From an uncultured virus (IMG/VR IMGVR_UViG_3300042470_001026) (taxonomy: Duplodnaviria; Heunggongvirae; Uroviricota; Caudoviricetes), in IMG/VR virus record IMGVR_UViG_3300042470_001026: 64,000 nt of DNA; one strand, given 5' to 3'. Below are positions 1 to 54,258 of the stretch, piece by piece. Numbering within the stretch: the stretch's first letter is position 1; the number at the start of each line of letters is the position of its first letter. Both the position numbers and the translations under genes were made by a program. The notes beneath the pieces were generated by a model that saw nothing but the letters and a program-made list of their open reading frames with translations, did not search any database and was not told where the DNA came from.

Positions 1-64
1 TGAGAAATTTATCCATTGTTAATAAATTTTAATTAATTTACACCCATAAACAAAAACCATCAAA

Positions 65-175
65 ATGAAAAACCAGTATCAAAAAGACAGTCTTTCTACC
101 ACAACAGCCACTGTTGGTCTTATTATCATTATCATTATTGGAATGCTTGCAGATTCCATAAGTAATTTATTTTAA
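65..175 (+). CDS. 36-aa single-pass membrane peptide
   Basis: Hand-translated MKNQYQKDSLSTTTATVGLIIIIIIGMLADSISNLF*; A-rich leader; below the ORF-track size cutoff. Confidence 0.55.
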   Translation: MKNQYQKDSLSTTTATVGLIIIIIIGMLADSISNLF

Positions 176-204: not shown

Positions 205-1200
205 ATGGCACATCAAATCAATTTTGACAAACGCACTGGAAAATGGTCTTTTGCCTCTCATTCAGAAAAAGCATGGCACGGTCTGGGACAAATTGTAGAC
301 AAGGCTATGACTGCCGAAGAAGCTATTAAGTATGCTAACCTAGATTACGAAGTAGCTAAAACCGATATATTCTTTTCTGGCAGCGATAACTCTATGAATC
401 CAATTGAGGGAATCTTCGCTACCTACAGAATGGATTCAAACGACTATTTAGGTTTAGTTCGTAGCCGTTATGAGATTGTACAGAACAAGGATGCCTTTGG
501 TTTTTTTGATACTATAATTCATGAGGGTGAAGCAATTTTTGAAACTGCTGGGGTTTTGGGTAAGGGGGAAAGAATCTTCTTGACCGCTAAACTGCCTGAT
601 GACTTTGAAATCGGGGGTGAGAAAATTGAGAAGTATATTCTTCTGACCAATAGCCATGACGGTACTAGCTCTGTAGTAGCGGGTTTGACCAATGTTCGTG
701 TAGTGTGTAATAATACCCTTCAGGCTGCTTTGGGTGGTCTGGATAATAAAGTGTCAATTAAACACACAAATGGTGTTCAGGATAGGCTAAAAGAAGCCCA
801 TCGGGTTATGGGTATAGCCTCAAAGTATAATAAGCAAGTGGAAGACATTTTTAATAAAATGGTGGATGTAAAGATGTCTGAAGGCGATTATCGGGACTAT
901 TTTACTAAAGTATTAGCTCCAGAGTATAAAGTCAAATCACCCGAAGAGCAAGCAGAAATGAGCACAAGGTTAAAAAATATGGTTGAGGCTACTACCCAGT
1001 TTGCATTTACCCACCCCACCCAGACCACAAATGCTGCCACTGGCAATCTTTGGGGGGCTTACAATGCTATTTCAGGGTATTACAACTATATCAAGCCTTA
1101 CGATAATCAGGAGAAGAAGTTTACGAGTCAGTTTTTTGGGGCTGCCAATACCAAGATGCTCAAATCATTCAATGAAGCCGTGTCCATATTAAACAATTAG
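205..1200 (+). CDS. DUF932 family phage/plasmid protein
   Basis: AWHGLG, YEIVQNKDAF, ETAGVL..G, LLTNSHDG, VRVVCNNTL and GNLWGAYNA motifs typical of DUF932. Confidence 0.9.
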   Translation: MAHQINFDKRTGKWSFASHSEKAWHGLGQIVDKAMTAEEAIKYANLDYEVAKTDIFFSGSDNSMNPIEGIFATYRMDSNDYLGLVRSRYEIVQNKDAFGFFDTIIHEGEAIFETAGVLGKGERIFLTAKLPDDFEIGGEKIEKYILLTNSHDGTSSVVAGLTNVRVVCNNTLQAALGGLDNKVSIKHTNGVQDRLKEAHRVMGIASKYNKQVEDIFNKMVDVKMSEGDYRDYFTKVLAPEYKVKSPEEQAEMSTRLKNMVEATTQFAFTHPTQTTNAATGNLWGAYNAISGYYNYIKPYDNQEKKFTSQFFGAANTKMLKSFNEAVSILNN

Positions 1201-36512: not shown

Positions 36513-36514
36513 CT

Positions 36515-36781: not shown

Positions 36782-36784
36782 AAA

Positions 36785-37333: not shown

Positions 37334-37336
37334 ATT

Positions 37337-37873: not shown

Positions 37874-37876
37874 GTT

Positions 37877-38946: not shown

Positions 38947-38952
38947 CCCAAA

Positions 38953-39225
38953 ATGGGAGCAACAAACGTACATACACAATCGCTATCCTCTGGTAGTATA
39001 ACTATATCCGCATCTAATAATGTTATTAGATTAAGTGTCATTTGTAAAAGCGGAACAATAACTGCTATTGGAAGTAGTACATTTCAAGATACAGCCTCTT
39101 CATCAGTTGAATTTACAACTGGAGAGGGTATTACGTTAACCGCACCAAGTATTAGTCAACCTATTGATGGGTTTACGATAGATGCTTCTTCTGGTGTTGC
39201 AGAGTTAGTAATTTCTTATCAATAA
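38953..39225 (+). CDS. small all-beta protein (possible penton or minor capsid)
   Basis: 90 aa of alternating beta strands, Ser/Thr/Gly-rich. Confidence 0.55.
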   Translation: MGATNVHTQSLSSGSITISASNNVIRLSVICKSGTITAIGSSTFQDTASSSVEFTTGEGITLTAPSISQPIDGFTIDASSGVAELVISYQ

Positions 39226-39236
39226 AAATAAAAACT

Positions 39237-39383
39237 ATGGCAAACTACATCTTATCAGAGCCTCAACGCAAAGAAGACGGAACGTTTTTGATTAGTTTAC
39301 TTTCTGAAGACGGAACTGTTCTTGCTGAAGGCGAAGGAGCTACCCAAGAGGAAGCCGAAGCCGATGCGAAATCCAAATTGTAA
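39237..39383 (+). CDS. 48-aa acidic protein
   Basis: Hand-translated MANYILSEPQRKEDGTFLISLLSEDGTVLAEGEGATQEEAEADAKSKL*. Confidence 0.65.
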   Translation: MANYILSEPQRKEDGTFLISLLSEDGTVLAEGEGATQEEAEADAKSKL

Positions 39384-39404
39384 TTAAAACAAAAAACCAT
39401 AAAA

Positions 39405-39842
39405 ATGCAAGATTTTATCACAAACGAAACCAACAAAATCTTCAGTAAAGCCATTAAGCGATTTGCAAAAAATGACAAAATTGAAGAAGAAAAAGTATCA
39501 CTCCTTTTACATCTTTTTGATGAAGGAGAGATAAATGAAAAGGGAGAACTTGAAAGAAAAGTAGGGTACAAAGTGTGTCAAAATTATGCACCCGTTAAGA
39601 GTGTAGGAATTTTAGAAATTTTGGGTGTGAAGATTGATTTGAAGATGTATTCTTATATAGTTCCTCCTCAAATAAAAAATATAATAGAAAATTTTGAGAC
39701 GGAAACGGGCTCAAAAGATATTGAAATTGGTGTTTATTTAGACAGAAATGATTCTGAAGAGGTAAACTACTTTTTATTTAATAATGGTCAATTAGTAAAA
39801 AAATTTGAATTAGAACAAGTCTTAAAATTAGAAGTAACATGA
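39405..39842 (+). CDS. hypothetical protein
   Basis: 145 aa with AAAAACCATAAAA leader. Confidence 0.7.
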   Translation: MQDFITNETNKIFSKAIKRFAKNDKIEEEKVSLLLHLFDEGEINEKGELERKVGYKVCQNYAPVKSVGILEILGVKIDLKMYSYIVPPQIKNIIENFETETGSKDIEIGVYLDRNDSEEVNYFLFNNGQLVKKFELEQVLKLEVT

Positions 39843-39934
39843 TGGGATGCTGTGCTTTTGGATTTTTTAGTTATTACGCCAAACAAATTACTCAAATTAA
39901 TATGTTTGGTTTTTCCGTTTTAAGACTATCATAA
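39842..39934 (+). CDS. 30-aa peptide
   Basis: MGCCAFGFFSYYAKQITQINMFGFSVLRLS*; TGATG coupling; fills the gap before the fibre gene. Confidence 0.45.
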   Translation: MGCCAFGFFSYYAKQITQINMFGFSVLRLS

Positions 39935-39946
39935 AAATAAAAATCC

Positions 39947-42900
39947 ATGAGTACAACATTTCTAGGAGGAGACGGATTCGGTTTTATAGGCGGTGGAGCT
40001 GGTGGTGGTGGCGGTACTGGTTCATCTGGAACCAGTGGTACAAGCTTTGGTAGCTCGGGAACTAGCGGTGGCTCGGGAACTAGCGGAAATAGTGGAAGCT
40101 CTGGAACAAGTGCTTTTTCAGGTACTTCTGGTACTTCAGGAACACATGGTTCTTCAGGTTCTTCTGGAACTTCAGGATTAACTGGTACATCTGGAACAAG
40201 CGGTGATTCAGGCTCTAGTGGAACTAGCGGTGAAGCTGGGAGTTCTGGAACATCTGGTCAATCAGGAACTTCTGGAGAAAGTGGTACTTCAGGCGATAAT
40301 GGTTCAAGCGGTACTTCAGGCGATAGTGGAACATCTGGAACTGACGGTTCTTCAGGCTCCAGTGGAACAACTGGAACCTCTGGCTCAAGCGGAGAAGATG
40401 GAACATCTGGGACATCAGGCTCTTCTGGTTTTGACGGAACAAGCGGTATAGACGGAACTTCTGGTGAATCAGGTACATCAGGTACCGATGGCTCTTCTGG
40501 AACTTCTGGAGTAAGCGGTAGTTCTGGCTCTAGCGGTACATCAGCTACAGACGGCTCTTCAGGAACAAGTGGATTTGAGGGAACCTCTGGTACAAGCGGT
40601 GAAAACGGAACTTCAGGCATTGACGGTACTTCTGGTCAAGACGGCTCTTCTGGAACAAGCGGAACAGCTGGTTCTAGCGGAGAATCTGGCACATCAGGTA
40701 CAGATGGTTCTTCTGGAACATCTGGTGAATCTGGTACTACTGGTACTAGCGGTGTTGACGGAACTAGTGGCGAAAGCGGAACATCAGGTGAAAGCGGAAC
40801 ATCAGGAACTAGTGGCGAATCTGGTACTTCTGGGACTGATGGCTCTTCTGGTACTTCTGGAGAATCTGGAACATCAGGAGAAAGCGGAACAAGTGGAACA
40901 AGTGCTGCGGATGGAACCGCTGGAACTAGTGGTGAAAGCGGAACAAGTGGAGAAAATGGCACCTCTGGTATAGACGGTACTTCTGGTATAGATGGTACAA
41001 GCGGAACGGCTGCATCTTCTGGTACATCAGGAACTTCTGGTACCTCTGGCGTAGATGGTACTTCAGGTACTGACGGTTCAAGCGGAACAAGTGCTGCCGA
41101 TGGAACTTCGGGAACCGATGGCTCTTCTGGAACATCTGGTACTGACGGCTCTTCAGGCACATCAGGAACATCTGGTTCAAGTGGTACAGACGGAAGCTCT
41201 GGAACAACTGGAACAAATGGTTCTTCTGGAACATCTGGCGAAAGTGGAACAAGCGGTACAAGTGCTGCGGATGGCACTTCAGGTACTGACGGAAGCTCTG
41301 GTACTTCAGGGGAAGCTGGAACAAGTGGGACTTCGGGCACCGATGGCTCATCTGGAACCGACGGCTCTTCAGGTACATCTGGCACTTCAGGTTCTTCAGG
41401 AACCGCTGGTACTGCTGGTCAAACGGGTACTTCAGGCACTGACGGTTCTTCGGGAACATCAGGGGAAAGCGGAACTTCTGGTACCGACGGTTCATCAGGA
41501 ACTAGCGGCGAAAGTGGTACTTCGGGCACCGATGGCTCTTCTGGTACTTCAGCCTCTTCGGGCAGCTCTGGCACATCGGGCACAGATGGTTCTTCGGGTA
41601 CTTCGGGAACCGATGGTTCTTCAGGTACGGATGGGTCTAGTGGTACATCAGGTACTGATGGTTCTTCAGGTACTTCAGGTACAGATGGCTCTTCAGGTAC
41701 TGATGGTTCGTCTGGTACATCTGGAGAGAATGGGTCTAGCGGAACCTCTGGAACCTCTGGTACAGCAGGAAGCTCTGGAACATCTGCAACCAATGGTTCT
41801 TCGGGCTCTTCTGGAACCTCTGGTGAAAATGGAACTTCTGGAACAGACGGCTCCAGTGGCACATCTGGCACCTCGGCAAGCTCTGGCTCTTCTGGTACTT
41901 CGGGTACCGATGGTTCTTCGGGTACAGACGGCTCAAATGGTACTTCTGGAACATCGGGTAGCTCAGGAACTGATGGTTCTTCTGGCACTTCTGGTACAGA
42001 TGGCTCAAGCGGCACAAGCGGCTCATCAGGGACATCTGCCACTTCTGGAACGGATGGTTCTTCAGGAACTTCAGGAACAAGTGGAGAAAATGGAACTTCT
42101 GGCACATCTGGCACCTCTGGTACTTCTGGTACTTCAGGAACTAGCGGAACAGACGGAACTACATGTGAAAGCTATACAATAATAGCTCCATCTGGCACGA
42201 CTACCACTACCACGACATCTACAACTACGACTACTCCGCCACCAGCTTGTCTGTGTTATTCTCTTACAAACGATGGTGACCCAACTAACACAAATACAAC
42301 AAATTATACTGATTGCGATGGTAATCCTCAGACGATAACAAATAAAATTTTTAACTCTGCTGCAACCTACTTTTGTGCTCAATCTGGTTCGGTTAGTGCA
42401 TCGTCTGGCTTAACAGTAACGGTCGTTACTGATTCGCCCAGCACTTGTAATGGATGTGGAGGTACGACAACTACTACTACTACTTCTACAACTACAGCTG
42501 CTTTATTGTCTGGCTCATATGCATATTCATATACAGATTGCTCTGGTAATGCTGTCTCAGGTAATTTAAGTGATGGTCAATCGCTTACTTTCTGCGCAGT
42601 TAGAGGCTCTGTAACTTGGGCTTATACTCTTGTTGATAATGGCGTATGCGCTGGTACTAGTGGAACAAGCGGTACTTCTGGTACTTCTGGAACGTCTGGC
42701 ACATCAGGTTCTTCTGGAACCAGCGGGTCTTCTGGTACATCAGGTACTTCTGGCTCTAGCGGTTCAAGTGGAACGTCAGCAGAAAGCGGTACTTCAGGAA
42801 CTAGTGCAACATCGGGCTCTTCTGGTACTTCAGCAACAGATGGAAGTTCTGGAACTAGTGGTACGGACGGCTCATCTGGAACAGATGGCTCTAGCGGTAC

Positions 42901-44761
42901 ATCTGGAACATCGGGCTCTAGTGGCTCTTCAGGTACTAGTGGCACACACGGTTATTCGGGAACTTCTGGTACGGACGGCTCATCTGGAACAAGCGGTGAT
43001 GCGGGTACTTCTGGTACTGATGGCTCAAGTGGAACTAGTGCTACTTCAGGAAGCTCTGGCTCCAGTGGCACATCTGGAACTTCAGGTTCTAGCGGTACTT
43101 CAGGAACGGACGGTTCTTCTGGTACAAGTGGAACGGATGGCTCTTCTGGAACTTCAGGAAGTAGCGGAACATCTGGCACATCAGGTTCTAGCGGTTCAAG
43201 TGGAACAGCGGGTACTTCTGGTTCAAGCGGTCAAAGTGGTGTTGCGGGTGGATTGGTATATTATCTAAATCAATCCGTAAATACAAATAGTGCCTTTGGT
43301 ACTCCAACATATAAACAATGGAGTCCGACTGCAACGGGCGGTGCTGAACAAACAGTAACTAAATCGGTATCGGGTAATACAAGAACTTTGTTGGCAACTT
43401 TTGCTACGGATTCGGGTGTTCCTAATATTACAAGTATTCCTTCGGGATTGTGGGCATGGGTTAATCACCTATCAATAAATAGTAATGGAACTTTAGCGGT
43501 TGATGTAGAGTTGTATAAATACACAACTGGTGGTGCTTCAACCTTACTTGGTACTACAAATTTAGATACCGAAACGCCAGGCAATGGTGTAATAAAAGAG
43601 TTTTTCACTACTTTATTCTTAGGACAAACCGCATTAGTTTCAACCGATAGGCTTTATTGCCAAATATATGTTGAGCATACTGGAGGTAGTAGTGCAGATG
43701 TTACTTTCTATACGGAAGGGACAAGCAATTATTCTTACGCTCAAACTACATTCAATCCTCCAAGTGGAACGAGTGGTACGAGCGGAGTAAATGGAACGAG
43801 CGGAACTAACGGTTCTTCTGGAACGGACGGCTCTAGCGGAACTTCTGGCACTTCAGGTTCTTCAGGTACTTCAGGCACATCTGGTTCAAGTGGAACTTCG
43901 GCAACTGATGGCTCCAGTGGAACGTCAGGTTTAGACGGTACTTCTGGAACAAGCGGTTCTAGTGGTACTTCTGGAACCTCTGGTTCTTCAGGAAGCTCTG
44001 GAACCTCTGGGACTAGCGGTTCTTCAGGAACAAGTGCTACCTCTGGTTCTTCAGGCACGGACGGCTCATCTGGTACTTCGGCTACATCTGGCTCTTCTGG
44101 TACGGATGGTTCCTCTGGTTCTTCTGGTACAGACGGTTCTTCAGGCACCTCTGGAACAAGCGGAACATCTGGCTCTAGCGGTACGTCGGGCACCGACGGT
44201 TCTTCGGGAACGTCAGCCAGTTCGGGTTCAAGTGGCACTAGCGGTACTTCTGGCTCTTCAGGTTCATCTGGAACGGCTGGTACAGATGGTTCAAGCGGAA
44301 CGGACGGCTCTTCAGGAACATCAGGTTCGAGCGGTAGTTCAGGAACTTCTGGAACAAATGGTTCAAGCGGAACCGACGGCTCAAGTGGCACGAGTGGAAC
44401 ATCAGGAAGCTCGGGAACGTCAGCTACTGCTGGCTCCTCTGGTTCATCTGGAACAGCTGCTACAGATGGTTCTTCTGGAACAAGTGGAGCTGCTGGCACA
44501 TCAGGTACATCTGGGTCATCAGGCACATCAGGAACATCTGGTTCAAGTGGTACTTCAGCCACATCAGGCTCAAGCGGTACGTCTGGTTCTTCGGGTACGT
44601 CAGCAAGCTCTGGCTCAAGCGGCACGGACGGGTCTTCTGGAACATCGGGAAGCTCTGGTTCTTCGGGAACAGCGGCTACGAGCGGAAGTGCTGGAACCTC
44701 TGGAAATACAGCGGAATTTTCTGGAACAAGCAGCAGTTCGATAACCCTACCATTAACTTAA
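39947..44761 (+). CDS. 1604-aa Gly-X-Y (Ser/Thr-rich) collagen-register fibre/stalk protein
   Basis: Three long (GTS/GSS/GTD)n tracts interrupted by a Cys/poly-Thr module and a beta-sandwich domain. Confidence 0.85.
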   Translation: MSTTFLGGDGFGFIGGGAGGGGGTGSSGTSGTSFGSSGTSGGSGTSGNSGSSGTSAFSGTSGTSGTHGSSGSSGTSGLTGTSGTSGDSGSSGTSGEAGSSGTSGQSGTSGESGTSGDNGSSGTSGDSGTSGTDGSSGSSGTTGTSGSSGEDGTSGTSGSSGFDGTSGIDGTSGESGTSGTDGSSGTSGVSGSSGSSGTSATDGSSGTSGFEGTSGTSGENGTSGIDGTSGQDGSSGTSGTAGSSGESGTSGTDGSSGTSGESGTTGTSGVDGTSGESGTSGESGTSGTSGESGTSGTDGSSGTSGESGTSGESGTSGTSAADGTAGTSGESGTSGENGTSGIDGTSGIDGTSGTAASSGTSGTSGTSGVDGTSGTDGSSGTSAADGTSGTDGSSGTSGTDGSSGTSGTSGSSGTDGSSGTTGTNGSSGTSGESGTSGTSAADGTSGTDGSSGTSGEAGTSGTSGTDGSSGTDGSSGTSGTSGSSGTAGTAGQTGTSGTDGSSGTSGESGTSGTDGSSGTSGESGTSGTDGSSGTSASSGSSGTSGTDGSSGTSGTDGSSGTDGSSGTSGTDGSSGTSGTDGSSGTDGSSGTSGENGSSGTSGTSGTAGSSGTSATNGSSGSSGTSGENGTSGTDGSSGTSGTSASSGSSGTSGTDGSSGTDGSNGTSGTSGSSGTDGSSGTSGTDGSSGTSGSSGTSATSGTDGSSGTSGTSGENGTSGTSGTSGTSGTSGTSGTDGTTCESYTIIAPSGTTTTTTTSTTTTTPPPACLCYSLTNDGDPTNTNTTNYTDCDGNPQTITNKIFNSAATYFCAQSGSVSASSGLTVTVVTDSPSTCNGCGGTTTTTTTSTTTAALLSGSYAYSYTDCSGNAVSGNLSDGQSLTFCAVRGSVTWAYTLVDNGVCAGTSGTSGTSGTSGTSGTSGSSGTSGSSGTSGTSGSSGSSGTSAESGTSGTSATSGSSGTSATDGSSGTSGTDGSSGTDGSSGTSGTSGSSGSSGTSGTHGYSGTSGTDGSSGTSGDAGTSGTDGSSGTSATSGSSGSSGTSGTSGSSGTSGTDGSSGTSGTDGSSGTSGSSGTSGTSGSSGSSGTAGTSGSSGQSGVAGGLVYYLNQSVNTNSAFGTPTYKQWSPTATGGAEQTVTKSVSGNTRTLLATFATDSGVPNITSIPSGLWAWVNHLSINSNGTLAVDVELYKYTTGGASTLLGTTNLDTETPGNGVIKEFFTTLFLGQTALVSTDRLYCQIYVEHTGGSSADVTFYTEGTSNYSYAQTTFNPPSGTSGTSGVNGTSGTNGSSGTDGSSGTSGTSGSSGTSGTSGSSGTSATDGSSGTSGLDGTSGTSGSSGTSGTSGSSGSSGTSGTSGSSGTSATSGSSGTDGSSGTSATSGSSGTDGSSGSSGTDGSSGTSGTSGTSGSSGTSGTDGSSGTSASSGSSGTSGTSGSSGSSGTAGTDGSSGTDGSSGTSGSSGSSGTSGTNGSSGTDGSSGTSGTSGSSGTSATAGSSGSSGTAATDGSSGTSGAAGTSGTSGSSGTSGTSGSSGTSATSGSSGTSGSSGTSASSGSSGTDGSSGTSGSSGSSGTAATSGSAGTSGNTAEFSGTSSSSITLPLT

Positions 44762-44788
44762 AGTGTGCTTTAATTTCAGAAAATATAA

Positions 44789-47521
44789 ATGCCTAGTTAC
44801 TCTAACATAACGATAACTACTAATACTGGACTAGCTTATAAAGCAAATGACTTTGTACAGTTAAGCAACAGCTCTACTGATTACATTATAGGAAGAGTAG
44901 TATCATATAATCCCGCTAACGGGCAGATGGTGGTGACACCCTATTTTTTTGAGGGGAGTGGAACGTTTACCAACTGGGAAGTAAACCTTACGGGTGCTTT
45001 TGGAACCTCTGGAACCGTAGGCACTAGCGGCACATCCGCTTCTTCAGGCTCATCGGGTATTTCCTCTAGTTCAGGTACAGAAGGCACTTCTGGCTCTTCA
45101 GGTACAAGGGGTTCTAGTGGAACGGCTGGGACTTCAGGTACAGCGGGTGCCAATGGTCAAAGCGCAAGCTCTGGGACAGATGGTTCAAGGGGCTCTTCAG
45201 GTACTAGCGGTACGAGCGGCTCTACGGGAACAAATGGTGAGTCAGGGACAACGGGAACATCTGGTACTGGGGGCGCAAGTGGGGGAACAAACGGACTTTC
45301 AGGCTCTTCTGGATTATCTGCAACTTCAGGTACTTCAGGAGCTAGTGGCTCTACGGGCACCTCTGGACTATCTGGTGGAACGTCAGGAACGAGCGGAAGC
45401 TCGGGAACCAGCGGCTCTTCAGGAGCAGATAGCTCTTCTGGTACCAGTGGTACTAGTAATGGTACTTCAGGTGTATCGGGAACCAGTGGCTCAAGTGGTA
45501 CAAGTGCAACTAACGGGTCAAGCGGCACATCGGGAACATCAGGTGTGAGCACCAATGCTACAAACGGAACGGCTGGAACATCTGGTGTGTCTGCAACCTC
45601 TGGCTCTAGTGGCACCTCTGCTACAGCTGGCTCATCGGGAACGTCGGGCTCTACGGGTGATGGCGGGGTTTCTGGAAATAGTGGTACATCTGGCTCTAGC
45701 GGTACGGGTGGTACTAACGGTGCTGCTCCTTCAGTCCCATCCAGCGGCTCTAGCGGGACAGCGGGCTCAAATGGCACTTCAGGCACAAGTGGTGGCACGC
45801 CAACTCAAGGCGTTAGCAGCACTAGTGGAAGCAACGGAACGGGCGGTATATCTGGCTCTAATGGGGTAGCACAGTCGCAAGGCTCTAATGGTACTAGCGG
45901 TAATTCTGGGTTATCGGGTACAGCTGGCTCAAGTGGATTGAGTCGCTCTTCAGGTAATTCTACTGAAAATCAAATAAGCGGGACAAGTGGTGCGAGTGCG
46001 ACAAGCGGCTCGGCTGGTGCTTCTGGATTAAGTGCTGGCTCTGGCACCTCTGGTGTTTCTGGTACGTCAGGCTCTAGCGGAGCAAGTCAGAGCAGCGGTA
46101 CTTCTGGCACTTCGGGAAGCAACGGAACAGCTGGTGCTTCAGGCTCTAGCGGTGAAAGCCGAACTAGTGGTACTTCAGGAGTATCGGGCGGTAGCGGCAG
46201 TAGCGGTCTTAGTGGTACAAACGGCTCTAATGGAGCTAACGGTAGTTCGGGTGCAAATGGAAGTAGTGGCGTTTCTGGTGGTAGCGGTACTAGCGGTTCT
46301 AGTGGTATTATTGCTACCAGCGGTGCTAACGGCTCTAGTGGTACAAATGGCTTTTCAGGTAGTAATGGCTCAACTCAATCCGCTGGTAAATCTGGTACAA
46401 GTGGTACTAGTGGTGCTAATGGTGTTGCGGGTACTAGTGGCTCAAACGGTACTGGTGGAAATGTTGCAAAATCGGGCACATCGGGTACGTCAGGTACAAA
46501 CGGCTCAAGTGGGGCGGGCACGACCTCTGGTATATCTAGCAGTAGTGGTACCTCTGGTAGTTCGGGTAGCACTGCTCCAGCGGGAGCTGGGGGCACCAGC
46601 GGTGTTAATGGAGCTACGGGCTCAAGTGGTTTAAGTGGTTCTAACGGGACTAACGGAAAACAAAACAACTCAATATTTTCAACTACTTGGGCAACCGATG
46701 GTGGTTTTTGTTGTGTTGTCATACCATGCGATTCAAATGGTGCAAATAGTGGATGTTTTAATATAACAAATCTTACCACTGTTAAATTAAGCACTGCTTC
46801 AGCATCATTTGGTGCTTCTGCATCACTTTGCTGTTCAAGATGCAGTATTGTAATGGGCGGAAGCAGTAATACAATTGGTTGTGCTACTGGTAATTGCCCA
46901 GTAGCATACTCAGGGATATTTGGTGGCGAAATAAATTCAATTAAGGATGATGCGGATACTGGTAATCCATGTTATAATGCGATTTTAGGAGGATACTACA
47001 ATTGTCTTAATGCATTAAATTGTTTTTCTCTTATTGCAGGAAGCTGTAACGTAAGATTAACTACAAATACATGTTTTTCTGTAGCTTTAGGTCTACAGAC
47101 TGTAACTAATGTGGCGAACTGCACCATATGCGTTGGTAATCTTGTAAAAGCCGCTGGTAAATTTTCAATCCCACATCCAAATCCAGCAAAAAAGTGTATC
47201 ATGCTAAATCATTCCTTTGTTGAAACGCCAACACAAGGAGATAATATATACAAATACAGAGTTCAGACAGCTAATTGCCAAGCATCGGTTATGCTACCAG
47301 ATTACTACAAATTTTTAAATTGTAATGACCAAGTGCACGTGAGCCCAGTAGATACCTTTGGAAATGCATATGGAGTAATAGATAGCTGTCAAACATCAAT
47401 ATCCATTTGTACTACAGAAGAAGGAAAATATGACGTAATTTTGATAGGAACAAGAAAAGATGAAGATGCAAAAAATACAAGAATAGCAAACTTAGGAGCA
47501 GAACAAATAATTTTTAAATAA
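44789..47521 (+). CDS. fibre paralog 1 (N-terminal beta domain, GTS tract, Cys-rich head, C-terminal chaperone-like domain)
   Basis: TGLAY..G.VVSYN..G..WEVNLTG N-domain; FSIPHP..LNHSFVETP..GDNIY..LPDYY..GTRKD C-domain. Confidence 0.85.
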   Translation: MPSYSNITITTNTGLAYKANDFVQLSNSSTDYIIGRVVSYNPANGQMVVTPYFFEGSGTFTNWEVNLTGAFGTSGTVGTSGTSASSGSSGISSSSGTEGTSGSSGTRGSSGTAGTSGTAGANGQSASSGTDGSRGSSGTSGTSGSTGTNGESGTTGTSGTGGASGGTNGLSGSSGLSATSGTSGASGSTGTSGLSGGTSGTSGSSGTSGSSGADSSSGTSGTSNGTSGVSGTSGSSGTSATNGSSGTSGTSGVSTNATNGTAGTSGVSATSGSSGTSATAGSSGTSGSTGDGGVSGNSGTSGSSGTGGTNGAAPSVPSSGSSGTAGSNGTSGTSGGTPTQGVSSTSGSNGTGGISGSNGVAQSQGSNGTSGNSGLSGTAGSSGLSRSSGNSTENQISGTSGASATSGSAGASGLSAGSGTSGVSGTSGSSGASQSSGTSGTSGSNGTAGASGSSGESRTSGTSGVSGGSGSSGLSGTNGSNGANGSSGANGSSGVSGGSGTSGSSGIIATSGANGSSGTNGFSGSNGSTQSAGKSGTSGTSGANGVAGTSGSNGTGGNVAKSGTSGTSGTNGSSGAGTTSGISSSSGTSGSSGSTAPAGAGGTSGVNGATGSSGLSGSNGTNGKQNNSIFSTTWATDGGFCCVVIPCDSNGANSGCFNITNLTTVKLSTASASFGASASLCCSRCSIVMGGSSNTIGCATGNCPVAYSGIFGGEINSIKDDADTGNPCYNAILGGYYNCLNALNCFSLIAGSCNVRLTTNTCFSVALGLQTVTNVANCTICVGNLVKAAGKFSIPHPNPAKKCIMLNHSFVETPTQGDNIYKYRVQTANCQASVMLPDYYKFLNCNDQVHVSPVDTFGNAYGVIDSCQTSISICTTEEGKYDVILIGTRKDEDAKNTRIANLGAEQIIFK

Positions 47522-47538
47522 TTATTAAACCAAATTAT

Positions 47539-47895
47539 ATGTTAGTAGCATCAATTAACCCACCAGCAAAAAAAGTTCTTCAAACAACACCTTTTACAAC
47601 GGAAGAAATTACAGCACCACAAATGATTACTAAGTGTTCAAGACTAGTAATCGGTAACTCATCTGAAACGATTGAGTTTGATATTCGTTTCGGAGAAGTA
47701 TACGACACCACTAATCCTGATGGGTCTATTCGCCCAATGTTTAAACTGATGGTTCATCACAACTTACGGTTTACTCACAGTGAATTAGCTGATTGGGGTA
47801 CTGATGATAGTTTTATATATTATAAAATAGCTGAAAGGCTTGGTTTTCAAATTACTTCACTAACCGAAGTTCCAGAATTAAATTTTGGCAACTAA
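47539..47895 (+). CDS. hypothetical protein between fibre genes (possible assembly factor)
   Basis: 118 aa; LADWGTDDS motif; function inferred from position. Confidence 0.65.
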   Translation: MLVASINPPAKKVLQTTPFTTEEITAPQMITKCSRLVIGNSSETIEFDIRFGEVYDTTNPDGSIRPMFKLMVHHNLRFTHSELADWGTDDSFIYYKIAERLGFQITSLTEVPELNFGN

Positions 47896-47898
47896 TAC

Positions 47899-50715
47899 AT
47901 GCCGCTATCTAACATAAATATTACTGTTAGCACGGGTTTATCATTTGTTGCTGGTGACTTCGTGCAAGTCAGTTATGATGCAAATAATTACATTATAGGG
48001 GAAGTCGTTTCCTATAATTCAAACACGGGTGCAATGGTTATTGCCCCAACTACGTTTGTAGGAAGTGGAACGTATTCTAGCTGGAACGTTAATCTTACGG
48101 GTTCGAACGGTACTGCGGGCACATCAGGTACAGCGGCTAGCAGTGGAAGTAGCGGTTTAAGTAGAACTAGCGGCTCGGCTGGCACCAGCGGTACGACGGG
48201 AACTAATGGAACCTCTGGAGATTCTGGCTCTAGTGCCACCTCTGGAACAAGTGGCACAAGTGGAACAACAGCAGCTTCATCAACAGCTGGCTCAAACGGC
48301 ACTTCAGCCTCTTCAGGTACAAGTGGAACTAGCTCTGTTTCTGGCACTTCTGGCTCAAACGGAACCTCCGCTTCTTCAGGCACTAGTGGACTGGTGAACG
48401 GAACATCTGGGACAGCTGGTACAAGTGGCTCTGCTGGACTAAGCGGCTCTACTGGTACGGCTGGCACATCTGGAACAAATGGTCAGCAAAATGGAACTTC
48501 TGGTGCTACGGGAACTTCAGGCTCCTCTGGTACTTCAGGCTCCAATGGAACCAGCGGAGGAAGCTTTAATAATAGTGGCTCAAATGGAACTAGTGGGGGT
48601 AGTGGCTCTTCAGGAACGGGTGGCTCTTCAGGAACATCAAATTTATCTGGAACAAACGGAGTAGAGGGGAGCTCTGGTCTATCAGCCTCCAACGGCTCTG
48701 CGGGAACAAGTGGTCTAAGCTCTACGGATGGCTCAAATGGCACCTCTGGCTCTTCAGGAACGGGAGGAACAGCTGGAACGGCTGGCTCTAACGGTGCCAG
48801 TGGTCTATCTGGTACTTCTGCTACCAGCGGCTCTACGGGTACAGCGGGTAACTCTGGAACATCAGGCACTAACGGAACGTCTGGTAGCTCCGCAACAACG
48901 GGTACTAACGGTACGAACGGTTCTGCGGGAACTAGCGGCGTGAGTGGTACTTCAGGCAGCTCGGGCACCTCTGGCTCTAGCGGAACGTCAGGAACATCTG
49001 CTTCTTCGGGCACAACTGGAGGTAACGGCTCTTCTGGCACCAGCGGTTCTGTAGGCTCTTCGGGGTCTATCCTTACTCCCGCAGCTAGCGGCACATCAGG
49101 CTCCTCTGGGACTAGCGGTACATCAGGTAGCTCGGGTAATGCTGGCTCAAACGGTATAAACGGAGCAAGTGGAACATCGGGTACATCTGGTAGCTCGGGT
49201 CTATCGGCATCCAGTGGCACCTCTGGTGTTAGTGGTACGTCGGGCAGCTCTGGCACCTCTGGCTCTTCGGGTGTATCAGGCTCTAATGGAACAAGTGGTG
49301 TAAGCGGTACATCAGGCAGTGGGGGTACATCGGGTACTAATGGCTCTTCAGGTTCATCTGGCACTAATGGTATTAGCGGTACATCAGGCAGTGGAGGCAC
49401 ATCGGGTACATCGGGTAGCTTCGGAAACTTTGGTGCTAACGGAAGCTCTGGCACATCAGGCTCCTCTGGAACGTCTGGAACAATTGGCTCAAACGGCACT
49501 TCTGGCTCAAACGGAACTAACGGTTCATCTGGCTCAAGTGGTACAAGCGGTACTTCGGGTACTACTGGAACCAATGGGGCGATGGGGAAATCGGGCTCTA
49601 ATGGCACTTCAGCAACATCGGGTAGCAGCGGAAAAAGCTACGGAGGAAACCCAGAGCCTAATAAATCTGGCACAAGTGGTACTTCAGGAACTACTGGAGG
49701 CAAGGGCGTAGATGGACAAAACGGAGCGACGGGAGCTAACGGAAGTTCTGGCTCAAGTGGTACGAGCGGAGAGCTTGGCGGCGGCGGTACTCCTTTTATT
49801 GATTATGCTAACCAAAATATGTATCCATGCGCTGGTTATGGGGCGAACACTGTTGACAAATCCGAAAACACCCTTTTATCTGGAGGAGCAAATTATATTT
49901 GTATGGCGGGTCTAAATGCCGATACTTTATATAATAATTTTATAGGGGGAGGGTATCTTAATGGTATCCTATTAGACCTGAGTTTATCGTCAGAGCCCTT
50001 AGTAGCAAATAATGCAATCGGCGGTGGAGAATCTAATTGCATATGGTATTGTGGTGCAAGTGGTCTTTTTCAATATAATAATGCTATTTTAGGTGGATTT
50101 CAAAATGAAATCGCTAACTGCCTTGCTGGTAAGTCATACGATTTAGGTGGAGGTTCTCATAATGCGATAGGGGGCGGGCGACTAAATAAAATCGAGACTG
50201 AGAGTTTTTGTAGTGTAATCTTGGGTGGTTGTGCAAGTTGTATGGTTAACTCAATAACAAATGTAATAGGAGGCTCTGCTGTAACTTTGAATTTACAATG
50301 CTGCGTTACACAATTCGATGCTATAGATAAAATATCTACTAATTTTGCTATTAAACATCCTGACCCACAGAAACATAATACTTGGCAACTTCGACATGCA
50401 CTTGTAGAATCACCAACAGCGGGTGATAATATTTATAGATACAAAGTTAAAACAACAAACTGTCAAGCTTTTGTAGAACTACCCTCTTATTATAAATTTT
50501 TAAATGAATTTGACCAAGTATGGGTAAGCCCTACCGACCATCTTGGTAAAGCATGGGGTTGTGTTAACAATGAACAAACACACGTCGAAGTAAATTCAAA
50601 CACTGATGGCGATTATTATGTTTTAATTGTTGGAACAAGAAAAGACGAATGTGCTAAAAAATTCTGGCAAGGAACTGAACATTATTCCGTACCAACTCAC
50701 ATAGTTGACTATTAA
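47899..50715 (+). CDS. fibre paralog 2
   Basis: Same architecture; GG..N.I repeats in the head; FAIKHPDP..LRHALVESP..GDNIY..GTRKD. Confidence 0.85.
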   Translation: MPLSNINITVSTGLSFVAGDFVQVSYDANNYIIGEVVSYNSNTGAMVIAPTTFVGSGTYSSWNVNLTGSNGTAGTSGTAASSGSSGLSRTSGSAGTSGTTGTNGTSGDSGSSATSGTSGTSGTTAASSTAGSNGTSASSGTSGTSSVSGTSGSNGTSASSGTSGLVNGTSGTAGTSGSAGLSGSTGTAGTSGTNGQQNGTSGATGTSGSSGTSGSNGTSGGSFNNSGSNGTSGGSGSSGTGGSSGTSNLSGTNGVEGSSGLSASNGSAGTSGLSSTDGSNGTSGSSGTGGTAGTAGSNGASGLSGTSATSGSTGTAGNSGTSGTNGTSGSSATTGTNGTNGSAGTSGVSGTSGSSGTSGSSGTSGTSASSGTTGGNGSSGTSGSVGSSGSILTPAASGTSGSSGTSGTSGSSGNAGSNGINGASGTSGTSGSSGLSASSGTSGVSGTSGSSGTSGSSGVSGSNGTSGVSGTSGSGGTSGTNGSSGSSGTNGISGTSGSGGTSGTSGSFGNFGANGSSGTSGSSGTSGTIGSNGTSGSNGTNGSSGSSGTSGTSGTTGTNGAMGKSGSNGTSATSGSSGKSYGGNPEPNKSGTSGTSGTTGGKGVDGQNGATGANGSSGSSGTSGELGGGGTPFIDYANQNMYPCAGYGANTVDKSENTLLSGGANYICMAGLNADTLYNNFIGGGYLNGILLDLSLSSEPLVANNAIGGGESNCIWYCGASGLFQYNNAILGGFQNEIANCLAGKSYDLGGGSHNAIGGGRLNKIETESFCSVILGGCASCMVNSITNVIGGSAVTLNLQCCVTQFDAIDKISTNFAIKHPDPQKHNTWQLRHALVESPTAGDNIYRYKVKTTNCQAFVELPSYYKFLNEFDQVWVSPTDHLGKAWGCVNNEQTHVEVNSNTDGDYYVLIVGTRKDECAKKFWQGTEHYSVPTHIVDY

Positions 50716-50717
50716 AA

Positions 50718-53396
50718 ATGCCCTTTAGTAATATAAATATAACGACAGACACGGGTCTAGATTACAAGATTAACGACTTTATTAATCTTCAGTATGATGC
50801 CTCAACCATAATATATGGACGTGTTGTTTCGTACAACTCCAATACGGGGGCTATGACCCTAACTCCTCTTTCTTTTTCAGGGGCTAACGGCTCATATAAC
50901 TCATGGGAAGTTCAGCTTAGTGGTCAGCACGGCTCTTCAGGCACTAGTGCCGCTTCAGGCTCTTCTGGAACCTCTGGCTCCGCTGCCAGCTCTGGCACAT
51001 CAGCGACCTCTGGTAGCTCTGCTCTAAGCGCAACATCGGGTGCTAGCGGCTCTTCAGGTAACAGTGCTTTAAGTGGTTCTACTGGCACAGCGGGAACAGC
51101 GGGTGCATCAGGAACATCTGGTGTTAGCGGCTCTTCGGCTTCTAACGGTACGGCTGGCTCATCAGGAACAAGTGCAGTTGGCGGGACATCTGCTTCCAGT
51201 GGTACCTCTGGCTCAAATGGAACATCGGCTTCATCAGGAACAAGCGGCACCTCTGGTTCTAACGGTACAAGTGCAGAATCAGCTAGCTCTGGAACGTCTG
51301 GAACGAGTGGCACTAACGGTTCATCAGCCACTTCTGGCTCTTCAACGGTGTCAGGTTCATCTGGAACATCTGGAACGTCTGCTACTTCGGGTAGTTCGGG
51401 CACATCGGGTTCTTCTGCAACGTCAGGAGATAATGGCTCTAGTGGAACAGCTGGCTCATCTGGCACTACTGGTACAAATGGGACTTCTGGCTCGGCTGGA
51501 ACGAGCGGGACATCGGGTTCTACTGGAACAGCGGGGGCTAACGGCTCAAGTGGTAATAGCGGTCAATCAGCAACGTCTGGTTCAAACGGCACAAACGGAA
51601 CTTCTGGCTCTACGGGCGCAAATGGTAGCTCTACAGCATCTTCAACATCGGGTTCTAATGGAACTTCTGGAACAAACGGCTCTAGTGCTGTCTCTGGTTC
51701 ATCAACAGCTAACGGAACTTCTGGCTCATCTGGAACGTCTGGTTCTAACGGTTCTAGTGGCACTTCTGGAACGTCTACAGCAAGTCAAGCCAGTGGAACT
51801 TCTGCTACGTCAGGCTCATCTGGGACGGCTGCATCTGTAGGTAGCTCTGGGACTAGCGGAACATCTGGTACAACTGGAGCGAGTGGAAGTGCGGGTACTA
51901 GTGGTACTTCAGGTTTATCTGCATCTAGCGGCACCTCCGCAAGCTCTGGAACTTCTGGTACCAGCGGCTCAAGCGGCGTATCTGGTGTTTCTACGGGGTC
52001 TGGAACGTCTGGCTCATCAGGCTTAAGCGGTTTAACGGGCGGCTCGGGAAGCTCGGGTCTATCTACGGGGTCTGGAACATCTGGCTCTTCTGGAATTAGT
52101 GGTACATCAGGCTCATCGGGAACAAGCGGATTGTCTGGTATCAGTGGTAATTCTGGTGGCTCTGGGGTGAGTGGAACCTCTGGTTCATCAGGTACTAGTG
52201 GCTTATCTGGTGCAAGTGGAAGCTCTGGAACTAGTGGAACGGCAGCTACTTCAGGTTCTTCAGGTACATCAGGCGTAAGCGGTCAGAGTTCAACATCAGG
52301 CTCATCAGGCGTAAGCGGTTTGAGCGGTAACTCTTGCAGTAGCGGTGTTTCAGGGGCAAGTAATGTTTCATCAATATCTGGAACTAGTGGAAGCAATGGA
52401 AATAACGGTTTTTCTGGTCTTTCTACCTCTTCTGGCACATCTGGAACGTTTGGCTCCAATGGAACAAACGGCTCATCAGGTTGTACGGGAGCATCTGGTT
52501 CTAACGGCACAAACGGAGCAGCTGGAGGAGCTGGGTCTAGCGGAACAAGTGGTTGCAGTGGTGAAACGGTTTGCTATGCAATTATTTATACAAATAGTTG
52601 TGCTTCCTTAGTTACCCCTTGTGTTGGGCATACTATGGTAAACACTGGGAGTTCCGCTTCATTAGCTGGTTGCGGAAATATTCAGTGCGACACAACTTAT
52701 ACATTAGCTCTTGCTGGTGCGAGAAATTGCTTTTGTGTAGCAGATACTTATGCAAGTGTTCAACTTGCTGGTAGTGATAATAATCACAATTGTGATTGTT
52801 CGCACAATGTAGGGGCTGTAGACTGCTGTTCACTTATGTCAGGTCGCTATAATGTAATCGTTGCTTCAGCTGCAAGCTGTACGGGAACTACAGCGAATAC
52901 ATTTCAATTTTCCTATATATATGCTAGTTGTCTTGCATGTTTAGCAAACTATTGTTTTTCTGGGATTATTGGAAGATGCAGCTTTGCAGCTACAGCAAAC
53001 AGTACAGCCTATTTATCGAATATTGATAAACAAAGTGGCGGATTTACAATACCTCACCCAGACCCACAAAAAACAAATACTCATAAATTAGTACACCACT
53101 TTGTTGAAACGCCATCAGAAGGGGATAATTTATATAGATTTAAGATTTTAGTAGAAAACGGATTCAAAAGATTTGAACTGCCTGACTACTATAAATATTT
53201 GAATAAAAACACCATTACAACTATTTCTCCAGTGGGACACTTTGGTAATGCATATGTAAAAGTATTTGAAAATGAAAATTACATGGAAATTACCGCAGAT
53301 ACCGATGGTGAATACAACGTGTTGTTGTTAGCAACTAGAAAAGACAAAGATATAAACGAGGTTTATAGAGGGATAGAAGTATTAGCTTGCCTTTAA
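50718..53396 (+). CDS. fibre paralog 3
   Basis: Same architecture; FTIPHPDP..LVHHFVETP..GDNLY..ATRKD. Confidence 0.85.
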   Translation: MPFSNINITTDTGLDYKINDFINLQYDASTIIYGRVVSYNSNTGAMTLTPLSFSGANGSYNSWEVQLSGQHGSSGTSAASGSSGTSGSAASSGTSATSGSSALSATSGASGSSGNSALSGSTGTAGTAGASGTSGVSGSSASNGTAGSSGTSAVGGTSASSGTSGSNGTSASSGTSGTSGSNGTSAESASSGTSGTSGTNGSSATSGSSTVSGSSGTSGTSATSGSSGTSGSSATSGDNGSSGTAGSSGTTGTNGTSGSAGTSGTSGSTGTAGANGSSGNSGQSATSGSNGTNGTSGSTGANGSSTASSTSGSNGTSGTNGSSAVSGSSTANGTSGSSGTSGSNGSSGTSGTSTASQASGTSATSGSSGTAASVGSSGTSGTSGTTGASGSAGTSGTSGLSASSGTSASSGTSGTSGSSGVSGVSTGSGTSGSSGLSGLTGGSGSSGLSTGSGTSGSSGISGTSGSSGTSGLSGISGNSGGSGVSGTSGSSGTSGLSGASGSSGTSGTAATSGSSGTSGVSGQSSTSGSSGVSGLSGNSCSSGVSGASNVSSISGTSGSNGNNGFSGLSTSSGTSGTFGSNGTNGSSGCTGASGSNGTNGAAGGAGSSGTSGCSGETVCYAIIYTNSCASLVTPCVGHTMVNTGSSASLAGCGNIQCDTTYTLALAGARNCFCVADTYASVQLAGSDNNHNCDCSHNVGAVDCCSLMSGRYNVIVASAASCTGTTANTFQFSYIYASCLACLANYCFSGIIGRCSFAATANSTAYLSNIDKQSGGFTIPHPDPQKTNTHKLVHHFVETPSEGDNLYRFKILVENGFKRFELPDYYKYLNKNTITTISPVGHFGNAYVKVFENENYMEITADTDGEYNVLLLATRKDKDINEVYRGIEVLACL

Positions 53397-54257: not shown

Positions 54258-54258
54258 A

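What the first reader, a model, noticed from the sequence alone, without database searches (positions are those of the whole stretch)
44700..45000. Fibre domain apparently split between genes: the stalk's last strand may complete the N-domain of each paralog
The 1604-aa protein ends just after its repeats with GNTAEFSGTSSSSITLPLT*. The three following fibres each start MP(S)xSNIxIT.xTGLxY/F. From recall, related phage fibre domains read continuously as ...Y.TTS.TS.TI..G..T.TV.TGLAY..., so the first strand seems to sit on the stalk gene and the rest on three separate genes. Inference: donor-strand complementation joins a stalk trimer to three tip chains, giving a very long two-stage fibre.
Basis: inference. 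Interest (0 to 1): 0.72.

Follow-up and report, generated by a model that had tools for sequence, protein, structure and literature searches.

The report
Barrel domain split between fibre genes
In this uncultured phage, a long collagen-like fibre protein ends with what looks like the first strand of a small barrel domain. Each of the next three fibre genes starts with the rest of that domain, so the proteins probably plug together end to end, though binding has not been shown.

Summary
The 1604-aa collagen-like protein (39947-44761) ends ...EFSGTSSSSITLPLT*. Three paralogous collagen-like fibres (44789, 47899, 50718) start MP(S)xSNIxIT..TGL.

In 150 representative homologs the ~68-aa domain occurs 279 times internally, typically preceded by YATTSTTSLTI-GTGS-KTFTV.TGLAY. 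The three window fibres begin just after that hairpin turn.

The stalk tail scores 21.7 bits on a strand-A matrix; true strands have a median of 22.3. It is the best of 33,707 window positions. In unsplit homologs P0013 and P0022 it aligns directly before the segment that the tip N-domains match.

The same tail motif is followed 4-53 nt after the stop by an MPxSNI-type gene at 13 distinct junctions. Twelve small proteins carry the truncated domain plus this tail. AlphaFold2 models one as a barrel with the tail as a confident strand.

In 8 of 13 junctions a poly-Thr or other domain follows the motif, so it may be just a collagen-exit cap.

Verdict: the split at sequence level is about 0.9 likely, and the trans strand-complementation joint about 0.55. 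This is a new variant of a known principle (pili; Tuc2009 BppU-BppA).

The parts
39947..44761 (+). Stalk: a 1604-aa collagen-like fibre protein (P0001). It has an N-terminal MSTTFLGGDGFGFIGGG motif and three long Gly-X-Y stretches. It contains no complete copy of the barrel domain.
   Evidence: Pfam Collagen E 5.7e-148, 15 stretches. The N-terminal motif is shared with the stalks of L047, L051 and G001. No domain hit outside the three tips.
42164..42652 (+). Insert in the stalk (residues 740-902): two Cys-rich modules flanked by poly-Thr linkers.
   Evidence: Non-collagen segments listed. Similar poly-Thr plus Cys-rich modules end the stalks of L051, L002-L006 and G002.
43247..43765 (+). Beta-rich insert in the stalk (residues 1101-1273). 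No Pfam family.
   Evidence: In L011-L036 it matches at 45-83% identity (mostly 66-83%), in other fibre architectures.
44717..44758 (+). Stalk tail FSGTSSSSITLPLT (residues 1591-1604): an orphan 'strand A' of the barrel domain, the proposed donor strand.
   Evidence: 21.7 bits on the strand-A matrix, top of 33,707 positions. Shuffles: 17 of 2000 anywhere, 0 of 2000 in the last 20 positions. Aligns to P0013 71-87 and P0022 230-245, with shuffled tails reaching the score in 1 of 1000 and 0 of 1000. Homologous motif in 6 other stalks.
44759..44788 (+). Stop codon plus a 27-nt spacer with two further in-frame TAA codons. The stalk and tip 1 are separate genes.
   Evidence: TAA is the common stop (13 of 16 genes).
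44789..44995 (+). Tip 1 N-terminal truncated barrel (strands B-F), residues 1-69 of P0002. Proposed acceptor.
   Evidence: Matches positions 31-99 of the 102-position unsplit profile, E 1.1e-23. The frame opens at the ATG.
44789..47521 (+). Tip fibre 1 (P0002, 910 aa): truncated barrel, collagen-like span 69-625, and a C-terminal ~270-aa domain of no known family.
47539..47895 (+). 118-aa ORF between tips 1 and 2. No family found and role unknown.
47899..50715 (+). Tip fibre 2 (P0003, 938 aa): truncated barrel 1-68 (47899-48102), collagen-like span 68-632, C-terminal domain.
   Evidence: (E 2.9e-26, profile 32-99).
50718..53396 (+). Tip fibre 3 (P0004, 892 aa): truncated barrel 1-69 (50718-50924), collagen-like span 69-617, C-terminal domain.
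   Evidence: (E 8.7e-21, profile 32-99).

Best explanation
Between their collagen-like stretches, these virion fibres carry a small six-stranded beta-barrel 'knob' domain. In this phage one such domain is divided at its first hairpin turn. The stalk protein ends with strand A (FSGTSSSSITL-PLT). Each of the three downstream fibres begins, at its Met, with strands B-F.

Most likely the stalk's C-terminal strand pairs antiparallel with strand B of a tip N-domain. This would supply the conserved aromatic and two aliphatic core residues (F1591, I1599, L1601) and complete the barrel. The result is a non-covalent plug-and-socket joint linking a ~1600-aa stalk trimer to ~900-aa tip fibre(s).

Shown here: the homology of both pieces to one unsplit domain, the position of the cut, the recurrence of the junction, and a predicted cis-completed barrel in small proteins that carry both pieces.

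Inferred: docking in trans, the stoichiometry, and where the assembly sits on the virion.
For: 1. Domain distribution. The profile search gave 2464 hits at E<=1e-3. In the best 150 proteins (plus the window's four) there are 330 domain copies, 279 internal and 51 at a protein N-terminus (three of them the window's own tips). Internal copies are preceded by Y-A-T-T-S-T-T-S-L-T-I-G-T-G-S (consensus of 221 copies).

2. Position of the cut. The window tips align to positions 31/32-99 of the 102-position unsplit profile, which is just after the hairpin turn.

3. Tail score. The tail scores 21.7 bits against a median of 22.3 for 206 true strands. It is the top of 33,707 window positions. Shuffles reach it 17 of 2000 times anywhere and 0 of 2000 times in the last 20 positions.

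4. Contiguous alignment to unsplit homologs. In P0013 the tail aligns to 71-87 and the tips to 86/91-157. In P0022 the tail aligns to 230-245 and the tips to 249-317. Shuffled tails reach the score in 1 of 1000 and 0 of 1000 trials.

5. Synteny. In the 51 loci then held, 13 of 13 ORFs with the motif (8 distinct) have an N-truncated fibre gene starting 30-56 nt after their stop. With G001-G003 and the window there are 13 distinct tail/N-terminus junctions, with gaps of 4-53 nt. G002 has two successive junctions. The second fibre there ends ...YNGTSGTTQTLPLT*, stopping one residue after LPL as in the window.

6. Covariation. Tails with [EQ]TLPL always precede N-termini with ..TF[QN].. (4 junctions). 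Tails with I[TS][LIF]P precede ..T[I]T.. (9 junctions).

7. Small proteins with both pieces. Twelve proteins of 89-110 aa consist of the truncated domain, a short linker and ...SI[ST]LPLS*. One is on a 21-kb contig and one on 13 contigs.

8. Structure models. The AF2 model of P0156 has pLDDT 82.9, and tail residues 75-86 form a strand with pLDDT about 82. Structural alignments to six-stranded barrels span model residues 2-82 up to 1-89. The unsplit model has strand A at 13-20 with pLDDT 79-91. On shared PDB targets the unsplit model covers one extra N-terminal strand that the small-protein model lacks. Examples are 4d2i_B (1..107 against 11..106) and 3vr2_A (1..69 against 10..69). This is what a circular permutation would give.

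9. Hairpin pairing. Mutual information in unsplit copies puts strand A against strand B; the L9-K16 pair ranks second.
Against: 2. In 8 of 13 junctions the motif lies 95-268 aa from the C-terminus, followed by poly-Thr and a Cys-rich or other domain. In 3 it is followed by 12-15 residues. Only 2 (the window and L063) end right after it. The motif could therefore be a collagen-exit cap of the stalk itself.

3. N-truncated genes outnumber tail-bearing genes. The window has three tips for one stalk, and window tips 2 and 3 have no tail-bearing gene directly upstream.

4. A five-stranded SH3-like barrel can be stable alone. The Pfam hits to SH3/Tudor/LSM are weak and below cutoff.

5. The tail/N-terminus covariation may reflect co-inheritance of about 100 adjacent bases. 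It traces to perhaps two independent lineages.

6. All PDB fold matches have Z<8 or Foldseek E>0.01.

7. The tail is Ser/Thr/Gly-rich like the rest of the protein, which inflates matrix scores. The next best hits are poly-Thr runs at 16.3 bits.
Confidence: 0.55

Rival explanations
1. The gene fission is real in evolutionary terms but there is no joint. The tail motif is a collagen-exit cap or linker of the stalk, and in relatives it leads into poly-Thr plus a Cys-rich domain. The truncated N-domain is a self-sufficient five-stranded anchor that binds something else, such as the baseplate or another part of the stalk. Adjacency reflects only fibre-gene synteny or cassette exchange at a conserved boundary.
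For: In 8 of 13 junctions a further 95-268 aa follow the motif. L051, a close relative of L047, keeps three N-truncated tips while its stalk continues into a Cys-rich domain. There are more N-truncated genes than tails. Conserved N-terminal anchor domains shared by paralogous receptor-binding proteins are common in phages (established knowledge). The small proteins may simply be circular permutants closed in cis.
Against: The tail keeps the aromatic and two aliphatic positions of strand A and scores like a true strand. The protein stops one residue after LPL independently in the window, in L063 and in 12 small proteins. The motif was followed by an N-truncated gene at 13 of 13 ORFs. An internal position does not prevent strand donation, because the extra domain could hang off as a side branch.
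Confidence: 0.33
2. The stalk and tip 1 are made as one polypeptide by stop-codon readthrough or recoding, so the domain is not split in the protein.
For: The stalk and tip 1 are in the same reading frame, 27 nt apart.
Against: Three in-frame TAA codons lie between them. TAA ends 13 of 16 sampled genes. Spacers differ in length and frame at other junctions, from 4 to 53 nt. The spacer peptide would not match the GTGS turn.
Confidence: 0.02
3. The tail resembles strand A by chance, owing to its Ser/Thr-rich composition.
For: The stalk is Gly/Ser/Thr-rich. Poly-Thr runs reach 16.3 bits on the same matrix. 17 of 2000 shuffles reach the score somewhere in the protein.
Against: 0 of 2000 shuffles reach it in the last 20 positions. 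The motif is conserved in 6 other stalks and 12 small proteins. Alignment to P0013/P0022 is contiguous with the tip alignment.
Confidence: 0.03

Closest known systems
Unsplit knob domains between collagen-like stretches of uncultured-phage fibres (no Pfam family; UniProt names 'Collagen triple helix repeat' or 'Tail fiber protein')
   Same: Same domain by sequence. The tips match the profile at E 1e-40. There are 2464 database hits. 25 BFVD models match the unsplit model at E<=1e-3.
   Different: In those proteins strand A and strands B-F are in one chain. Here strand A is on the preceding gene.
Lactococcus phage Tuc2009 baseplate tripod, BppU-BppA joint (PMC4742702; abstract and matched passages read)
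   Same: A C-terminal extension of one phage adhesion-device protein 'completes one of the beta-sheets' of a domain of another protein. The composite resembles a whole (titin-like) domain.
   Different: In Tuc2009 a 25-residue beta-hairpin is added to a beta-sandwich. Here a single strand would add to a six-stranded barrel, next to collagen-like helices. No sequence relation was tested. The Tuc2009 joint is solved, whereas this one is predicted.
Donor-strand complementation/exchange in chaperone-usher pili and strand exchange in Bacteroidia type V pili (established knowledge; papers seen only as search listings)
   Same: The principle is the same: an incomplete beta-domain is completed by a strand from the neighbouring subunit, giving a stable non-covalent polymer.
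   Different: Pilins are Ig-like, lack the last strand, use an N-terminal (or for type V a C-terminal) donor, and need a chaperone/usher or protease. Here the first strand of a barrel is missing, the donor is a C-terminal tail after a collagen helix, and no such machinery was seen.
Anchor-branch receptor-binding-protein systems of phages, where paralogous fibres share a conserved N-terminal anchor domain (established knowledge, recalled)
   Same: Several paralogous fibres share one conserved N-terminal module, presumably for attachment to a common partner.
   Different: Those anchors are complete domains. Here the shared module is a truncated copy of a domain whose missing strand sits on the neighbouring protein.

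Membership tests
Collagen triple-helix repeat (PF01391) | Gly-X-Y repeats scoring above the Pfam gathering score | tested here: met
   All four proteins pass. E 5.7e-148, 1.6e-41, 2.3e-49 and 3.3e-46 against a cutoff of 27.2 bits.
Knob barrel domain of collagen-like phage fibres (unnamed) | Profile match to strands B-F | tested here: met
   The three tips match at E about 1e-40, and these are the only copies in the window. They cover positions 31/32-99 of the unsplit profile.
Knob barrel domain of collagen-like phage fibres (unnamed) | Strand A (Y.TTS.TSLTI) in the same chain, directly before strand B | tested here: not met
   The tip frames open 0-3 codons before the ATG. The strand is absent from the tips.
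Knob barrel domain of collagen-like phage fibres (unnamed) | Strand A present somewhere in the fibre set (here on the stalk tail) | tested here: met
   21.7 bits against a median of 22.3 for true strands. Aligns to P0013 71-87 and P0022 230-245.
Trans strand-complemented joint (as in Tuc2009 BppU-BppA) | Physical completion of one protein's beta-sheet by a C-terminal segment of another | not testable with these tools
Only a cis proxy exists: the small-protein model has the tail as a strand.
Trans strand-complemented joint (as in Tuc2009 BppU-BppA) | Sequence relationship to BppU/BppA | not tested
   No comparison was run.
Chaperone-usher donor-strand complementation | Ig-like pilin fold lacking its last strand | tested here: not met
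   The models are closed barrels whose best matches are barrel domains, and it is the first strand that is missing.
Chaperone-usher donor-strand complementation | Dedicated chaperone and usher genes | tested here: inconclusive
   None appeared among the PHROG hits of 54 ORFs or the Pfam hits of 22 ORFs. Not every ORF was scanned.
Endosialidase-type C-terminal chaperone (Peptidase_S74) on the tips | Pfam PF13884 match at the C-terminus | tested here: not met
   No Pfam hit at E<=1 for the last 265-273 aa of the three tips. Relatives such as P0013 have it.

The most novel reading that the evidence does not exclude
The three paralogous tips are chains of one heterotrimeric collagen-like fibre, built like C1q from three tandem genes. 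Each chain's truncated barrel would be completed by one of the three identical tails of a stalk homotrimer. The split barrel would then be both the joint and the device that sets a 3:1:1:1 stoichiometry and chain register.

Pointing this way: the collagen-like spans of the three paralogs are nearly equal within a phage and differ threefold between phages. They are 557/565/549 aa in the window and 186/188 aa for the first two tips of L047 and L051. The third tip of L051 reads 250 aa because of a likely spurious last run. Three N-truncated fibres also follow the stalk in the window, L047 and L051.
Probability: 0.15. Interest if true: 0.8.

Novelty: new variant of a known kind. Interest (0 to 1): 0.62.

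Why it matters
If the joint is real, long phage fibres can be built from separately encoded segments that snap together through a domain cut at a fixed hairpin. That would explain how tips, side domains and extensions are swapped between phages at a conserved gene boundary. It would also give a rule for predicting which fibre proteins assemble with which, and offer a small natural plug-and-socket pair for engineering host range or protein assemblies.

The domain is abundant, with 2464 database hits, yet has no Pfam family or solved structure. My three literature searches found no description of such a joint in phage fibres. In one search, none of the 15 listed papers held 'donor strand'. One search returned 0 papers. 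In one search, none of the 12 listed titles concerned phage fibres.

Tried and rejected
- Readthrough or fusion of stalk and tip 1. Rejected: three in-frame TAA codons lie between them, and TAA is the usual stop.
- Chance resemblance. Rejected by the shuffles and by conservation.
- First look at genes directly upstream of N-truncated fibres in L001-L009. Their last 45 residues do not resemble strand A. In L002-L006 the motif later turned up 95-161 aa before the C-terminus. For L001, L007 and L008 a tail-bearing stalk lies several kb upstream.
- A composition-matched background for the matrix was uninformative, because it rewards every non-Ser/Thr residue.
- The stalk N-terminal motif search gave only one new locus.
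- Context searches for small protein P0100 found nothing in viral or metagenome contigs.
- PDB searches. By sequence there was nothing below E 0.14. Foldseek gave nothing at E<=0.001. VIA-align gave only Z<8 matches, which indicate a common barrel arrangement.
- The mutual-information analysis fits an A-B hairpin but is too noisy to fix the register or to test the split pairs.
- blastn of 36000-40000 against cultured phages found no match. tblastn of the N-domain found only 3 records.
- No whole genome is held for this window.
Full report
**What is there.**
The window is a 64-kb piece of a virus record; no host genome is held. Background GC is 0.32-0.39, rising to 0.47-0.49 over the fibre genes. 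PHROG and Pfam scans show phage-type content. This includes endolysins, polyvalent-protein domains, glycosyltransferases and many ORFs with no family. Part of the window (36000-40000) has no nucleotide match among 50,697 cultured-phage records.

Four large plus-strand genes lie in a row. They are a 1604-aa protein (39947-44761) and three paralogs of 910, 938 and 892 aa (44789-47521, 47899-50715, 50718-53396). A 118-aa ORF sits between the first two paralogs. All four large proteins are dominated by Gly-X-Y collagen-like repeats (Pfam Collagen, E 5.7e-148 to 1.6e-41). That is also why they hit PHROG 'tail fiber' families.

**The observation.**
The long protein ends ...GNTAEFSGTSSSSITLPLT*. The paralogs begin MPSYSNITITTNTGLAY, MPLSNINITVSTGLSF and MPFSNINITTDTGLDY. 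Their first ~70 residues are 57% and 53% identical to the first.

The tips cannot start further upstream. Their stop-to-stop frames open 0, 1 and 3 codons before the ATG. The stalk and tip 1 share a frame, but three TAA codons separate them. TAA terminates 13 of 16 sampled genes, so I reject readthrough.

**The domain and its unsplit form.**
The ~68-aa N-domain has no Pfam family. Only sub-threshold SH3/LSM-type hits appear. PHROG hits are weak.

A profile of the three copies found 2464 proteins at E<=1e-3 among 1.84 billion representatives. The best 150 proteins, together with the window's four, hold 330 copies. Of these, 51 start at residue 1-3 of their protein (three are the window's own tips) and 279 are internal, with up to 18 per protein.

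The internal copies are preceded by a conserved segment. The consensus of 221 near-full-length internal copies reads ...GD.YATTSTTSLTI-GTGS-KTFTVQTGLAY....

Against the 102-position profile of these unsplit copies, the window tips match positions 31/32-99 (E 1e-23, 3e-26, 9e-21). They therefore start right after the hairpin turn that follows the first strand, which I call strand A.

**Is the stalk tail strand A?**
I built an 11-column weight matrix of strand A. It gives FSGTSSSSITL (stalk residues 1591-1601) 21.7 bits. The median of 206 true strands is 22.3, though these are the sequences the matrix was trained on.

This is the best of 33,707 positions in all window ORFs of 60 aa or more. The runners-up, at 16.3 bits, are poly-Thr runs. 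Of 2000 shuffles of the stalk, 17 reach 21.7 bits anywhere and none in the last 20 positions.

Two unsplit homologs give contiguous alignments. In P0013 the tail aligns to 71-87 (GAATIYNGTSADSITIP) and the tip N-domains to 86/91-157. In P0022 the tail aligns to 230-245 (GPSPAFSGTSTTSLTI) and the tips to 249-317. Shuffled tails reach the score in 1 of 1000 and 0 of 1000 trials.

The window has no complete copy of the domain anywhere.

**Recurrence elsewhere.**
Viral contigs found through the stalk's beta-domain, its N-terminal motif and the N-domain include relatives with the same gene order.

- L047 (identical across the stalk-tail/tip-1 junction in L045, L048 and L050). Its stalk starts MSSTFLGGDTFSF... 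and carries three complete internal domains. It ends ...VYSGTSGSSETLPLAEATTTSTTTTTTTAA*. Three N-truncated fibres follow.
- L051. This stalk has the same motif, followed by poly-Thr and a Cys-rich domain, again with three N-truncated fibres after it.
- L002-L006, L020/21 and L036. The upstream collagen-like fibre contains ...LFYGESLNCITLPL......CGTSGNTITIPS... or ...LYGTSSNTI[ST][FL]P... before a C-terminal domain.
- Records G001-G003. A stalk with ...MAGTSGSTITIPPA... is followed by an N-truncated fibre. In G002 that fibre itself ends ...YNGTSGTTQTLPLT*. Four nucleotides later comes a 131-aa gene with only the first hairpin of the domain (MPYADLTFQVQPGLRFVANDFV), then poly-Thr and a Cys-rich domain.

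In the 51 loci held at that point, 13 of 13 motif-bearing ORFs (8 distinct) had an N-truncated gene starting 30-56 nt after their stop. The final table has 13 distinct junctions, with gaps of 4-53 nt. One further row was cut off by a locus end.

There is a selection caveat. L001-L010 were chosen for having the N-domain, although not for having the tail. The other loci were chosen for neither feature.

**Both pieces in one small protein.**
Among homologs I found 12 proteins of 89-110 aa made of the truncated domain, a short linker and ...S[LF][FL].G.S..SI[ST]LPLS*. Two more carry variant endings. One cluster member lies on a 21-kb contig and another was seen on 13 contigs.

The AF2 model of P0156, built from a 36-row alignment, has mean pLDDT 82.9. 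It shows five strands plus the tail (residues 75-86) as a sixth. The last block has pLDDT about 82, and only the linker (69-72) is low.

The AF2 model of an unsplit copy (L047 stalk, 56-row alignment) has mean pLDDT 79.1, with the core near 90. Strand A lies at 13-15 and 19-20, ahead of five further strands.

Both models resemble generic six-stranded barrels, such as the F1/V1-ATPase and HerA N-terminal barrels, translation-factor domains and a JBD30 baseplate protein. All matches have Z<8 or Foldseek E>0.01, so they show fold class only.

On shared targets the unsplit model covers one more N-terminal strand than the small-protein model:

| Target | Unsplit model maps to | Small-protein model maps to |
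|---|---|---|
| 4d2i_B | 1..107 | 11..106 |
| 3vr2_A | 1..69 | 10..69 |
| 2gjk_A | 324..415 | 338..419 |

Other targets align the small-protein model through residues 82-89. This is what a circular permutation would give, with the tail replacing strand A. I had no coordinates, so the pairing partner of the tail was not seen.

**Further hints.**
In unsplit copies, mutual information links strand A to strand B (T3-Q21, L9-K16), as expected for a hairpin.

Across the 13 junctions, tails with [EQ]TLPL always precede N-termini reading ..TF[QN].. (4 junctions). Tails with I[TS][LIF]P precede ..TIT.. (9 junctions). Both types occur at successive junctions of G002. Because the two pieces are only about 100 bases apart, co-inheritance can explain this as well as co-adaptation.

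**What speaks against a joint.**
In 8 of 13 junctions the motif is followed by 95-268 further residues, and in 3 by 12-15. Only the window and L063 stop right after it. The motif may therefore be a collagen-exit cap that happens to descend from strand A.

N-truncated genes outnumber tail-bearing genes, and window tips 2 and 3 have no tail-bearing gene directly upstream. A five-stranded barrel may also be stable on its own.

**Known parallels.**
In the solved Tuc2009 tripod, a 25-residue C-terminal hairpin of BppU 'completes one of the beta-sheets' of BppA domain 2 (PMC4742702, passages read). Donor-strand complementation in pili is the general precedent (established knowledge).

Three literature searches found nothing on such joints in phage collagen-like fibres. 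They cover only the held library.

Earlier AI notes of this scan describe the same kind of split in other genomes. They are leads, not evidence.

**Verdict.**
The sequence-level split is well supported, at about 0.9. I consider the plug-and-socket joint the most likely mechanism, at about 0.55. The main rival, at about 0.33, is a vestigial or cap motif paired with an independent anchor domain.

Noticed in passing
window 44993-46663, 48100-49794, 50922-52568; L047, L051: The collagen-like spans of the three paralogous tips are nearly equal within a phage (557/565/549 aa here). They are about threefold shorter in relatives: 186/188 aa for the first two tips of L047 and L051. This suggests the paralogs co-assemble or must match in length.
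   Followed up: partly
L063:2512-2904 (record G002); L062 minus strand: A 131-aa gene starts with only the first hairpin of the barrel (MPYADLTFQVQPGLRFVANDFV), then poly-Thr and a Cys-rich domain. It lies 4 nt after a fibre that ends ...TQTLPLT*. It may be a lectin-like add-on that plugs in by the same junction.
   Followed up: partly
window 39405-39842: The 145-aa ORF upstream of the stalk (MQDFITNETNKIFSKAIKRFAK...) resembles the ORF upstream of the G001 stalk (MEEFILSETRTIFNKAIKRFAK...). Synteny therefore extends beyond the fibres. It has no family.
   Followed up: no
window 53382-62828, minus strand: Directly after the fibre genes lies a minus-strand block with a carbamoyltransferase (Nol-like, E 3.5e-91) and several glycosyltransferases (GT1, GT9). 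They could modify the Ser/Thr-rich fibres or poly-Thr linkers, which is speculation.
   Followed up: no
window 43247-43765: The stalk's beta-rich insert matches at 45-83% identity (mostly 66-83%) in L011-L036. The fibres there have different ends, many with coiled-coil/S74-like C-termini. This indicates module shuffling among collagen-like fibres.
   Followed up: partly
window 40001-52000: GC is 0.47-0.49 over the four fibre genes against 0.32-0.39 elsewhere. This is probably explained by Gly/Ser/Thr codon content rather than by foreign origin.
   Followed up: no
window 11008-13050 and 23337-24458: A 680-aa protein carries DUF5661 and ART-PolyVal (ADP-ribosyltransferase of polyvalent proteins). 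A 373-aa protein is made of tandem PAS domains.
   Followed up: no
window 46700-47518, 49900-50712, 52599-53393: The C-terminal ~270 aa of the three tips share a motif (..IPHP[ND]P.K.. / ..VETP..GDN[IL]Y[KR][YF][KR]..) but have no Pfam hit at E<=1. This is presumably the receptor-binding end.
   Followed up: no
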